From the IMG/VR virus record IMGVR_UViG_2695420732_000023: a DNA stretch of 39,472 bases. One strand, written 5' to 3'. The translations under genes and the position numbers were made by a program. Numbering within the stretch: the stretch's first letter is position 1; each line of letters begins with the position of its first letter. Source of the DNA: a virus (lineage: Duplodnaviria; Heunggongvirae; Uroviricota; Caudoviricetes). The notes under the pieces are model-generated. The model saw nothing but the letters and a program-made list of their open reading frames with translations. It searched no databases and was not told the DNA's origin. Shown here in pieces: positions 26,466 to 27,239 of the stretch.

Positions 26466-26821
26466 TGGCCCGTATCGGGGGAACCTGTTATTTCAAAATT
26501 GACGGTCAGCAGCTATCGCTGACCGGCGGCATTGAGGTGCCCATGAACAGGACGGTCAATGATGACATCATCGGCCTGGACGGTTCAGTGGACCGCAAGG
26601 AAACTCACCGTGCGCCTTATGTCAAAGGGACCTTCAAGGTGCCGAAGAATTTTCCGGTGAGCAAAATCACCTCGTCTGATGAGATGACCATCACTGCCGA
26701 GCTGGCGAACGGTCAGGTCTATGTATTGTCGTCCGCCTGGCTGCACGGTGAAGCGAACCATAATGCCGAAGAAGGCACGGTCGATCTTGAGTTCCACGGT
26801 GAAGAAGGGGATTACCAGTAA
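26465..26821 (+). CDS. tail tube protein (Mu M-like)
   Basis: 118-aa ORF directly after sheath; overlapping start. Confidence 0.8.
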   Translation: MARIGGTCYFKIDGQQLSLTGGIEVPMNRTVNDDIIGLDGSVDRKETHRAPYVKGTFKVPKNFPVSKITSSDEMTITAELANGQVYVLSSAWLHGEANHNAEEGTVDLEFHGEEGDYQ

Positions 26822-27090
26822 TGAAAGAGCTTGAGTTAAAGAAACCGATTATTGCTCATGGCGAGACACTCTCCGTACTGGAGTTTGATGAACCCACCGG
26901 GAAGGATGTCCGCGAGCTGGGGTATCCCTACCAGATGAATCAGGATGAGTCCGTCAGACTTCTGGCGCATGTGGTGTCGAAATACATTGTGCGGCTGGCG
27001 AAAGTGCCGCAAAGCTCTGTCGACCAGATGTCTCCGGCAGACCTGAATGCAGCGGCGTGGCTTGTGGCCGGTTTTTTCCTCCAGGCCTGA
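26821..27090 (+). CDS. tail assembly chaperone, short form
   Basis: 89-aa ORF between tube and tape measure; terminates 10 nt after a TTTTTTC slippery heptamer. Confidence 0.7.
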   Translation: MKELELKKPIIAHGETLSVLEFDEPTGKDVRELGYPYQMNQDESVRLLAHVVSKYIVRLAKVPQSSVDQMSPADLNAAAWLVAGFFLQA

Positions 27091-27239
27091 CGGCTGAATA
27101 CCTCACTGATCGCTTCTTTGACTGCGCCAGTTACTGGCGCATTAATCCCTTCGAATTGCTGAATATGCCGATCAGTGAAATTCCCTTGCTGGTCAGTCAG
27201 GCAAACAGGATAGAGCAGGAGAAACGCACACATGGCTGA
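26821..27239 (+). CDS. tail assembly chaperone, long form via programmed -1 ribosomal frameshift at TTTTTTC (27072-27078)
   Basis: -1 frame is open from the slippery site to 27239 (FFPPGLTAEY...), ending just upstream of the tape measure gene; conserved G/GT-type arrangement. Confidence 0.55.

What the first reader, a model, noticed from the sequence alone, without database searches (positions are those of the whole stretch)
26821..27239. Programmed -1 frameshift in the tail assembly chaperone
Seen: the slippery heptamer T TTT TTC (27072-27078) sits 10 nt before the stop of the chaperone ORF. The -1 frame is open from there to 27239, ending at the start of the tape measure gene. Established: a conserved translational frameshift between the tube and tape measure genes yields a short and a long chaperone in most long-tailed phages.
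Basis: partly seen in the sequence, partly recalled or inferred. Interest (0 to 1): 0.4.

Follow-up and report, generated by a model that had tools for sequence, protein, structure and literature searches.

The report
Tail chaperone -1 frameshift, P2 E/E+E' type
This is an ordinary, well-supported example of the programmed -1 ribosomal frameshift that long-tailed phages use to make a short and a long tail-assembly chaperone from one gene, here in an SfV-like E. coli/Shigella prophage where public annotation leaves the long form out.

Summary
T_TTT_TTC (27072-27078) lies in the X_XXY_YYZ register of an 89-codon ORF (26821-27090). That ORF sits between the tail tube gene and the tape measure gene. 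The -1 frame runs from the heptamer to TGA at 27237-27239 and overlaps the tape measure ATG (27232) by 8 nt.

The heptamer alone proves little, because TTTTTTC occurs 21 times in the window. The comparative evidence is decisive:
- 126 of 126 loci fetched with N-terminal-only queries keep T_TTT_TTN in register (46 distinct fusion proteins).
- The -1 frame always reaches the tape measure start, while the zero-frame stop wanders 9-78 nt downstream.
- 8 of 11 lineages have no start codon for the second ORF.
- Third-codon-position variability switches from frame 0 to frame -1 at the heptamer.

The ORF is Pfam PF10109. A profile of the fusion aligns with phage P2 E+E' (hhalign 95%), and the two slip sites coincide. 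P2's -1 shift at TTTTTTG is established experimentally. No stimulatory RNA structure was found, as reported for P2. Phage Mu, whose tail genes otherwise resemble these, uses a -2 shift instead.

Verdict: a real but already known mechanism, so low interest. The practical point is an annotation gap. In none of the 15 records read (4 phages, 3 RefSeq E. coli genomes, 8 distant relatives) is the fusion annotated.

The parts
26465..26821 (+). Tail tube gene (118 aa), immediately upstream. Its stop overlaps the chaperone ATG.
   Evidence: PF10618 Tail_tube E=2.4e-33 and phrog_185.
26821..27090 (+). Zero-frame tail assembly chaperone ORF. This is the short product, 89 aa, the counterpart of P2 gpE and lambda gpG.
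   Evidence: PF10109 Phage_TAC_7 at 56.7 bits against a cut-off of 25, E=2.4e-15. The profile ends at residue 86, exactly at the slip site. Also phrog_166.
27072..27078 (+). Slippery heptamer T_TTT_TTC. The P-site codon is UUU (27073-75) and the A-site codon is UUC (27076-78). Both are read by tRNA-Phe, which can re-pair on UUU UUU one base back.
   Evidence: Sequence and register. Invariant in 9 sequences of 70-80% identity. T6N is in register in 126 of 126 loci, and the wobble T of the preceding codon is kept although the amino acid varies: GGT, AAT, AGT, CCT, plus CGT and GAT.
27078..27239 (+). -1 frame extension: 53 codons plus TGA, the counterpart of P2 E' and the lambda T domain. The long product is join(26821..27078,27078..27239), 139 aa.
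   Evidence: phrog_32181 E=3e-41. Variability peaks at -1 frame codon position 3 (0.46 against 0.135 and 0.227, chi-square p=8e-6). hhalign aligns it with P2 E'. There is no start codon in this frame in 8 of 11 lineages.
27088..27090 (+). Zero-frame stop codon (TGA) that ends the short product.
   Evidence: Its distance from the heptamer varies among relatives: 9, 18, 27, 30, 42, 63 and 78 nt, and 48 nt in PG1. Its position is therefore not part of the signal.
27217..27221 (+). AGGAG Shine-Dalgarno-like sequence, 10 nt before the tape measure ATG, embedded in the end of the -1 extension.
   Evidence: Read directly from the sequence. Its function is inferred.
27232..29067 (+). Tape measure gene (611 aa). 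Its ATG overlaps the stop of the -1 extension by 8 nt (ATGGCTGA), the same overlap length as P2 E+E'/T.
   Evidence: PF10145 E=3.5e-27. Overlap.

Best explanation
The 26821-27090 gene encodes the tail assembly chaperone of an SfV-like prophage. This prophage has an HK97-type head and a Mu-type contractile tail, and it is integrated at tRNA-Thr.

Proposed mechanism:
1. Most ribosomes read the gene in frame 0 and terminate at 27088-27090. This gives an 89-aa protein, the counterpart of P2 gpE and lambda gpG.
2. A minority slip back one nucleotide when two tRNA-Phe occupy UUU UUC within T_TTT_TTC (27072-27078). Both re-pair on UUU UUU.
3. Those ribosomes continue in the -1 frame to 27239. This gives a 139-aa fusion (86 + 53 aa), the counterpart of P2 gpE+E' and lambda gpGT.
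4. No RNA structure or Shine-Dalgarno-like stimulator is involved. The heptamer alone sets a low, fixed ratio of long to short product.

Function, by analogy with lambda and P2 (inferred, not shown here):
- The shared N-terminal domain coats the tape measure protein.
- The -1 encoded C-terminal domain recruits the tube protein, so that the tube polymerises around the tape measure.
- Neither product stays in the virion.

Shown here: the sequence anatomy, the homology, the conservation, and selection acting on both frames. Inferred: the actual slippage, its efficiency, and the assembly role.
For: Position and family:
- The gene lies between the tube and tape measure genes and is PF10109.

Homology to the experimentally established case:
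- A profile of 10 fusion proteins aligns with P2 E+E' over 122 columns (hhalign probability 95%, E=3.4e-8).
- In that alignment LVAGFF|PPG matches P2 KVVGFL|VAE.
- P2 carries T_TTT_TTG at that spot, a -1 extension of 57 aa and the same 8-nt overlap with gene T. The P2 RefSeq record marks it as a -1 translational frameshift (PMC3091744 citing Christie 2002 and Xu 2004).

Conservation:
- 11 phages of 29-100% identity, from Escherichia, Edwardsiella, Pantoea, Salmonella, Burkholderia, Pseudomonas, Stutzerimonas and Bordetella, all carry T_TTT_TTC/T/G at the same column, with -1 frames that end at the tape measure start.
- 126 of 126 loci retrieved with residues 1-80 only, which exclude the slip site, have the heptamer in register (110 C, 8 T, 8 G). 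They give 46 distinct fusions.
- The wobble T before the run is kept although the codon's amino acid changes among G, N, S, P, R and D.

The extension is coding and depends on recoding:
- Column variability peaks at frame-0 position 3 upstream (0.525 against 0.166 and 0.099; p=1e-17).
- It peaks at frame -1 position 3 downstream (0.46 against 0.135 and 0.227; p=8e-6).
- 8 of 11 lineages have no ATG, GTG or TTG in the -1 frame upstream of the heptamer.

Mechanism background:
- The lambda gpG:gpGT ratio is about 30:1. G binds the tape measure and T binds the tube. P2-type efficiency is 2-3 fold higher than lambda's (PMC5009743).
Against: - No protein, ribosome-profiling or reporter data exist here, so slippage itself is not demonstrated.
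- The Pfam model for the P2 E' domain (PF06528) does not detect the extension at E<=1. The link to E' rests on hhalign and on shared motifs (FHWPPSEL in P2 and Bordetella phage; YWRINPFEL here).
- U_UUU_UUC is not among the most slippery heptamers in E. coli. No stimulator was found, so efficiency may be low.
- Ribosomal slippage and RNA-polymerase slippage on the T run give the same protein. Sequence alone cannot separate them.
Confidence: 0.88

Rival explanations
1. Transcriptional slippage. RNA polymerase stutters on the T6 run (A6 in the template) and adds one U to a fraction of transcripts. These are then translated conventionally into the same 139-aa fusion.
For: - A U7 transcript reads GGU UUU UUU CCU CCA, giving G F F P P. 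This is identical to the -1 ribosomal product (sequence logic).
- Conservation of a homopolymer run is what both models predict.
- A genomic T7 variant gives exactly the fused ORF.
Against: - The run is never longer than 6-7 T in 126 loci. Efficient programmed transcriptional slippage in bacteria uses longer runs, about 9 or more; this figure is from my own knowledge of Baranov et al. 2005, not checked here. Selection for polymerase slippage would favour lengthening.
- The homologous P2 site and the lambda G/GT site are treated in the literature as ribosomal (PMC5009743, PMC3091744).
- This cannot be excluded by sequence.
Confidence: 0.07
2. Two separate genes. The second ORF (27057-27239, GTG start, 60 aa) is translated independently, as annotated in phage vB_EcoM-689R6 and as many 'hypothetical protein' entries.
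For: - A GTG lies at 27057 in the -1 frame.
- GenBank ON470584 annotates this ORF.
- phrog_32181 and about 1000 contigs carry it as a called protein.
Against: - The 18 nt before the GTG (agacctgaatgcagcggc) contain no Shine-Dalgarno motif.
- 8 of 11 lineages have no ATG, GTG or TTG at all in this frame upstream of the heptamer, yet they conserve the extension.
- Between 27057 and 27071 the substitutions fall on frame-0 third positions such as GCC/GCT/GCG/GCA.
- The homologous P2 E' has no independent start and is annotated as joined.
Confidence: 0.02
3. No recoding. The 141 nt between the chaperone stop and the tape measure start (27091-27231) is an untranslated spacer, as in RefSeq/PGAP annotation, and the open -1 frame is fortuitous.
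For: - In the three RefSeq E. coli records read in detail, and in the SfV, EPP-1 and AH07 phage records, the stretch is left unannotated.
- Heptamer plus open frame occurs by chance in a few other ORFs of the window.
Against: - A codon-position periodicity in the -1 frame is present downstream (p=8e-6).
- The -1 frame is open to the tape measure start in 126 of 126 loci despite 29-100% divergence.
- Amino-acid motifs (A-x-Y/F-W-R/K-hydrophobic-N/D-P) are conserved across clades whose DNA is no longer alignable.
Confidence: 0.01

Closest known systems
Phage P2 gpE / gpE+E' (-1 frameshift at T_TTT_TTG; Christie et al. 2002, as cited in PMC3091744; RefSeq NC_001895 P2p25/P2p26)
   Same: - Same Pfam family for the N-terminal domain: PF10109 in both.
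- The whole fusion aligns by hhalign at 95% probability, with the slip sites in the same column.
- Same T6N heptamer in the same register and the same -1 direction.
- Similar sizes: 91/142 aa in P2 against 89/139 aa here.
- Same 8-nt overlap with the tape measure gene.
- No stimulatory structure in either (PMC3091744).
- Same gene order: sheath, tube, chaperone, tape measure.
   Different: - The seventh base is C here (UUC, Phe) and G in P2 (UUG, Leu), so here both slipping tRNAs are tRNA-Phe.
- The zero-frame stop is 9 nt after the heptamer here and 18 nt in P2.
- The extension is too diverged for the PF06528 (Phage_P2_GpE) model to detect it.
- The rest of the tail module (gp43-48-like baseplate) is Mu-type, not P2-type.
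Phage Mu gp41 and its frameshift extension (-2 frameshift; Xu, Hendrix and Duda 2004, as cited in PMC2628397 and PMC5009743)
   Same: - Same position between Mu-type tube (gpM) and tape measure genes.
- The flanking sheath, tube, DNA-circulation and baseplate genes of the window are Mu-like.
- Mu gp41 has a weak PF10109 hit, just below the cut-off (24.7 bits against 25).
   Different: - Mu's extension lies in the +1/-2 frame and its -1 frame is closed. Here the -1 frame is used and the +1 frame closes after 16 codons.
- Mu gp41 is 144 aa and belongs to PF23746, which the window protein does not hit.
- hhalign between the two is not significant (probability 1.2%).
Phage lambda gpG / gpGT (-1 frameshift at G_GGA_AAG; Levin et al. 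1993; Xu et al. 2013 and 2014, as summarised in PMC5009743)
   Same: - Same logic: a short chaperone and a rare -1 extended form from one start, encoded between the major tail gene and the tape measure gene.
- The ratio is set by a bare slippery heptamer, and the products are absent from virions.
   Different: - Non-contractile tail.
- Different heptamer and different tRNAs.
- No detectable sequence similarity was tested or found here.
- The functional roles (G binds the tape measure, T binds the tube protein) are transferred by analogy only.

Membership tests
Frameshift-expressed tail assembly chaperone pair (lambda G/GT, P2 E/E+E' class; Xu et al. 2004) | Encoded between the major tail (tube) gene and the tape measure gene, on the same strand. 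| tested here: met
   Tube 26465-26821, chaperone 26821-27090, tape measure 27232-29067, all on the + strand.
Frameshift-expressed tail assembly chaperone pair (lambda G/GT, P2 E/E+E' class; Xu et al. 2004) | Two overlapping reading frames. The second has no start of its own and runs to the tape measure gene. | tested here: met
   The -1 frame is open to 27239 and overlaps the tape measure ATG by 8 nt. 8 of 11 lineages have no start codon in that frame upstream of the slip site.
Frameshift-expressed tail assembly chaperone pair (lambda G/GT, P2 E/E+E' class; Xu et al. 2004) | Slippery sequence in the correct register within the overlap, conserved in relatives. | tested here: met
   T_TTT_TTC at 27072-27078. 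T_TTT_TTN is in register in 126 of 126 loci fetched with bait that excluded the site.
Frameshift-expressed tail assembly chaperone pair (lambda G/GT, P2 E/E+E' class; Xu et al. 2004) | The extension is a real protein domain under purifying selection in the shifted frame. | tested here: met
   Third-position variability switches from frame 0 to frame -1 at the heptamer. Motifs are conserved across clades.
Frameshift-expressed tail assembly chaperone pair (lambda G/GT, P2 E/E+E' class; Xu et al. 2004) | Both products are made in vivo at a fixed ratio, are needed for tail assembly and are absent from virions. | not testable with these tools
   Needs western blot or mass spectrometry, reporter assays and genetics. 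None is available here.
Pfam PF10109 Phage_TAC_7 (P2 E, Mu 41 family) | HMM score above the gathering threshold. | tested here: met
   56.7 bits against a cut-off of 25, residues 4-86 on profile positions 2-78 of 79.
Pfam PF06528 Phage_P2_GpE (the E' domain of P2) | HMM hit on the -1 encoded extension. | tested here: inconclusive
   No hit at E<=1 for the 53-aa extension and none for the fusion. However, hhalign aligns the extension with P2 E' residues 86-136 as part of a 95%-probability match.
Mu gp41 type (PF23746, -2 frameshift) | PF23746 domain, with the extension in the +1/-2 frame. | tested here: not met
   No PF23746 hit. The +1 frame closes after 16 codons. In Mu the +1/-2 frame is the open one.
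Stimulated -1 frameshift sites (dnaX type: downstream hairpin or pseudoknot 5-9 nt away, upstream Shine-Dalgarno-like element) | A stable structure at the right spacing, conserved among relatives. | tested here: not met
   The 50 nt after the heptamer fold no better than shuffles (z=+0.68). No consistent structure appears in 22 relatives. The only strong hairpin starts 44 nt downstream. I saw no Shine-Dalgarno-like motif in the 9 nt printed before the heptamer in 11 relatives or further upstream in the window.

The most novel reading that the evidence does not exclude
The hairpin UGCGCCAG-NUA-CUGGCGCA (27123-27141) has 8 bp and starts 44 nt after the slip site, inside the -1 extension. It could be a functional RNA element specific to the SfV clade. 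For example, it could be a processing or stability site, or a ribosome-pausing site, that tunes the stoichiometry of chaperone, long chaperone and tape measure.

Points in favour:
- Its stem is invariant in 9 sequences that are only 70-80% identical overall. That includes four synonymous third positions in a region where most third positions vary.
- The only variable base is in the loop.

Points against:
- There is no covariation.
- It is largely broken in one relative (L108).
- It is absent from the more distant clades.
- The significance test was done post hoc.
Probability: 0.1. Interest if true: 0.3.

Novelty: already known. Interest (0 to 1): 0.12.

Why it matters
Biologically this adds nothing new. 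It is the textbook tail-chaperone frameshift, homologous site for site to the experimentally established P2 E/E+E' case.

Its practical value is for annotation:
- The module is present in 918 of 5426 complete E. coli genomes.
- In none of the 15 records I read is the long product annotated as a joined CDS. These are the SfV, EPP-1, AH07 and vB_EcoM-689R6 phage records, three PGAP-annotated E. coli chromosomes, and eight more distant relatives (SfIV, ST64B, phiP27, BgVeeders33, DVM-2008, PG1, PBb002 and the unannotated IPK).
- The stretch 27091-27231 is either left blank or called a separate hypothetical protein.

The data also show a point of comparative interest. A tail module that is otherwise Mu-like uses the P2-type -1 T6N slip, not Mu's -2 slip.

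Tried and rejected
Negative results:
- Stimulatory structure. I folded 27072-27160 and the 50 nt after the heptamer in 22 relatives against dinucleotide shuffles. I also ran RNAalifold on 11 sequences. Nothing lies at a functional distance, and the window's z-score is +0.68.
- Hairpin 27123-27141 as a frameshift stimulator. Rejected on spacing (44 nt) and on its absence from distant clades. The palindrome occurs once in the window.
- Rfam scan of the whole window: only tRNA-Thr.
- NCBIfam: no model hits either the fusion or P2 E+E'.
- PDB sequence search with the fusion profile: no meaningful hit.

Tool refusals and limits:
I did not pursue it, because the fold would not decide the question.
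- The search for related loci with broad alignments failed for lack of a conserved stretch. A narrower alignment and single-protein queries worked.
- The first viral scan used the full fusion as bait and returned only near-identical loci. I used it only for the allele census, not for the conservation count.

Literature:
- The primary papers are not held: Christie 2002, Allison 2002 (SfV genome) and Xu 2004. I could not check whether SfV itself was listed in the Xu et al. survey.
- Full-text searches found no paper describing this frameshift in SfV, SfI, SfII, ST64B or phiP27.

Readings rejected:
- Independent initiation at GTG 27057 and the untranslated-spacer reading were considered and rejected (see rivals).
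- A +1/-2 shift as in Mu was rejected because the +1 frame closes at 27097.

Full report
**What is in the sequence**

The region reads ...GTG GCC GGT TTT TTC CTC CAG GCC TGA.
- The ORF 26821-27090 encodes 89 aa, and its codon boundaries place TTTTTTC (27072-27078) in the X_XXY_YYZ register.
- Nine nucleotides separate the heptamer from the TGA at 27088-27090.
- The -1 frame is open from 26949 to TGA at 27237-27239. Read from the slip site, it adds 53 residues.
- Its stop overlaps the ATG (27232) of the 611-aa tape measure ORF by 8 nt.
- The +1 frame closes after 16 codons.
- The predicted long product is join(26821..27078,27078..27239), 139 aa.
- The neighbouring genes are tail sheath (24969-26465), tail tube (26465-26821, PF10618), tape measure (PF10145), a DNA-circulation protein and a Mu gp44-like baseplate hub.

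**Where the window comes from**

- The tail module is 98-99% identical to Shigella phages SfV, SfI and SfII and to Escherichia phage vB_EcoM-689R6.
- The 419-nt feature is present in 918 of 5426 complete E. coli genomes.
- The window starts in a proA-like gene. A tRNA-Thr (1369-1444) and an integrase (1459-2622, minus strand) follow.
- Threonine tRNA is the integration site reported for SfV (PMC3091744).

**Is it more than chance?**

The heptamer alone is not. TTTTTTC occurs 21 times in the window against 9.8 expected. Five of 114 ORFs of at least 80 aa have an in-register heptamer near their end followed by at least 50 open -1 codons. The case rests on comparison with relatives.

1. A tblastn search with the fusion found phage relatives with local matches down to about 35% identity. 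Most match in two pieces, that is, in two frames.
2. In 11 loci the heptamer T_TTT_TTC, T_TTT_TTT or T_TTT_TTG sits at the same alignment column. The loci are the window, SfV, Edwardsiella EPP-1, Pantoea AH07, SfIV, ST64B, phiP27, Burkholderia BgVeeders33, Pseudomonas DVM-2008, Stutzerimonas PG1 and Bordetella PBb002. In all of them the -1 frame runs to the tape measure start, while the zero-frame stop lies anywhere from 9 to 63 nt downstream.
3. As an unbiased test, I fetched loci with residues 1-80 only, so that the slip site was not part of the bait. One scan covered one genome per species and three scans covered viral contigs. All 126 loci carry T6N in register (110 C, 8 T, 8 G) and give 46 distinct fusion proteins.
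4. The codon before the run changes its amino acid but always ends in T (GGT, AAT, AGT, CCT, CGT, GAT). This points to selection on the nucleotide run itself.

**The extension is coding and depends on recoding**

Nine sequences that are 70-80% identical to the window were compared column by column.

| Segment | Frame-0 pos 1 | Frame-0 pos 2 | Frame-0 pos 3 | p |
|---|---|---|---|---|
| Upstream of the heptamer | 0.166 | 0.099 | 0.525 | 1e-17 |
| Downstream of the zero-frame stop | 0.135 | 0.46 | 0.227 | 8e-6 |

Frame-0 position 2 is position 3 of the -1 frame. The variability peak therefore moves from the third position of frame 0 to the third position of frame -1 at the heptamer. The heptamer itself is invariant.

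Eight of the 11 lineages have no ATG, GTG or TTG in the -1 frame upstream of the heptamer. The window's GTG at 27057 has no Shine-Dalgarno motif. These facts dispose of the separate-gene reading, which phage 689R6 and many 'hypothetical protein' entries use. They also dispose of the untranslated-spacer reading used by PGAP.

**Comparison with what is known**

- The short ORF is PF10109 (Phage_TAC_7, 'E, or 41 or 14') at 56.7 bits. The profile ends exactly at the slip site.
- A profile of ten fusions aligns with P2 E+E' over 122 columns (hhalign 95%, E=3.4e-8). LVAGFF|PPG lies opposite P2 KVVGFL|VAE, and YWRINPFELLNMPISEI lies opposite FHWPPSELYPMSLTEL.
- In P2 the site is T_TTT_TTG. The products are 91 and 142 aa. 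The -1 stop overlaps gene T by 8 nt. RefSeq annotates the join and the slip site. The shift is cited as experimentally established and as lacking a stimulatory structure (PMC3091744).
- The Pfam model of the P2 E' domain (PF06528) does not reach the window's extension. That membership is left as inconclusive.
- Phage Mu supplies the closest relatives of the flanking tail genes, but it differs. Its gp41 belongs to PF23746, its extension is in the +1/-2 frame and its -1 frame is closed. This agrees with the reported -2 shift (PMC2628397, PMC5009743).
- This Mu-type tail therefore uses a P2-type chaperone and a P2-type slip.

**Mechanism**

- Both codons in the ribosome at the moment of slippage (UUU in the P site, UUC in the A site) are read by tRNA-Phe. 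It re-pairs on UUU UUU one base back. This is inference from the sequence.
- No stimulator was found. The 50 nt after the heptamer fold no better than shuffles (z=+0.68). Twenty-two relatives show no common structure. I saw no Shine-Dalgarno-like motif in the 9 nt printed before the heptamer in 11 relatives or further upstream in the window.
- The function is transferred from lambda and P2. The common domain binds the tape measure, the extension binds the tube protein, the ratio matters, and neither product is in the virion (PMC5009743).

**What remains open**

Transcriptional slippage on the T run would give the same protein. I rate it unlikely, because the run never exceeds 6-7 T in 126 loci and the homologous sites are treated as ribosomal.

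**Side observations**

- An 8-bp hairpin (27123-27141) inside the extension is invariant, synonymous sites included, within the SfV clade. It shows no covariation and is absent from distant clades.
- Rare alleles with one extra base (GG to GGG, or T6 to T7) hard-wire the fusion. This explains why the exact 139-aa protein already exists in databases as KDU40741.1 and STK26617.1.

**Verdict**

It is a member of a well-known class, homologous to the P2 E/E+E' frameshift. Novelty is low. The useful outcome is a correction to annotation.

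Noticed in passing
window 27123-27141: Perfect hairpin UGCGCCAG-NUA-CUGGCGCA inside the -1 extension, where it encodes CASYWRI. In 9 sequences that are only 70-80% identical overall, the stem is invariant, including four synonymous third positions, and only the first loop base varies (post-hoc p about 1e-3). It keeps 6 bp in Kosakonia (L109), is mostly broken in L108, and is absent from the SfIV, ST64B, Burkholderia and Pseudomonas clades. There is no covariation. It lies too far (44 nt) from the slip site to act as a classical stimulator. It remains unexplained.
   Followed up: partly
L014 1250-1262, L016 1250-1262, L017, L018 (GG to GGG); L015 1250-1262 (T6 to T7): These are natural one-base insertion alleles just before or within the T run. 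They put the whole 139-aa fusion in one frame, so only the long form would be made by standard decoding. The GGG allele occurs in E. coli 3-373-03_S1_C3 (KDU40741.1), in an ENA metagenome contig, and in 2 of 80 IMG/VR close relatives. The T7 case is in an assembly whose neighbouring genes are also broken, so it is probably a sequencing error. Whether the GGG prophages still make tails is unknown.
   Followed up: partly
window 27091-27231, and the same stretch in NC_003444 (SfV), OQ910326, MZ501270, NZ_CP007491, NC_017632 and NZ_CP035812: Public annotation leaves this 141-nt stretch without a feature, or calls a separate 60-aa hypothetical protein (ON470584). None of the 15 records I read carries a ribosomal-slippage join, although the P2 RefSeq record does.
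   Followed up: yes
window 1-2622: This is the left prophage junction. It comprises a proA-like aldehyde dehydrogenase gene (1-1254), tRNA-Thr with anticodon CGU (1369-1444) and a tyrosine integrase on the minus strand (1459-2622). This is the integration site reported for SfV.
   Followed up: partly
window 36690-38639 (minus strand): A 649-aa ORF with GmrSD N- and C-terminal domains, which mark a type IV restriction endonuclease that targets modified DNA. It sits at the right end of the prophage, beyond the tail fibre genes, and is a likely prophage-carried defence gene.
   Followed up: no
window 34887-35895: Two tail-fibre assembly (Caudo_TAP) genes face each other, at 34887-35480 (+) and 35452-35895 (-). 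The arrangement resembles an invertible host-range segment. The related E. coli ACN002 prophage has a pinE recombinase next to its counterpart. I did not check for a recombinase in the window.
   Followed up: no
window 1-16800 and 34433-39472, compared with L225: The prophage is mosaic. The structural module 16801-34432 is 97.4% identical to the ACN002 prophage. The early region and the right end match it only in patches or not at all.
   Followed up: no
L224 (phage Mu) 3950-4131: In Mu the frame that stays open up to the tape measure gene is +1/-2 relative to gp41, and the -1 frame is closed. This agrees with the reported -2 frameshift. The RefSeq record annotates only gp41.
   Followed up: partly
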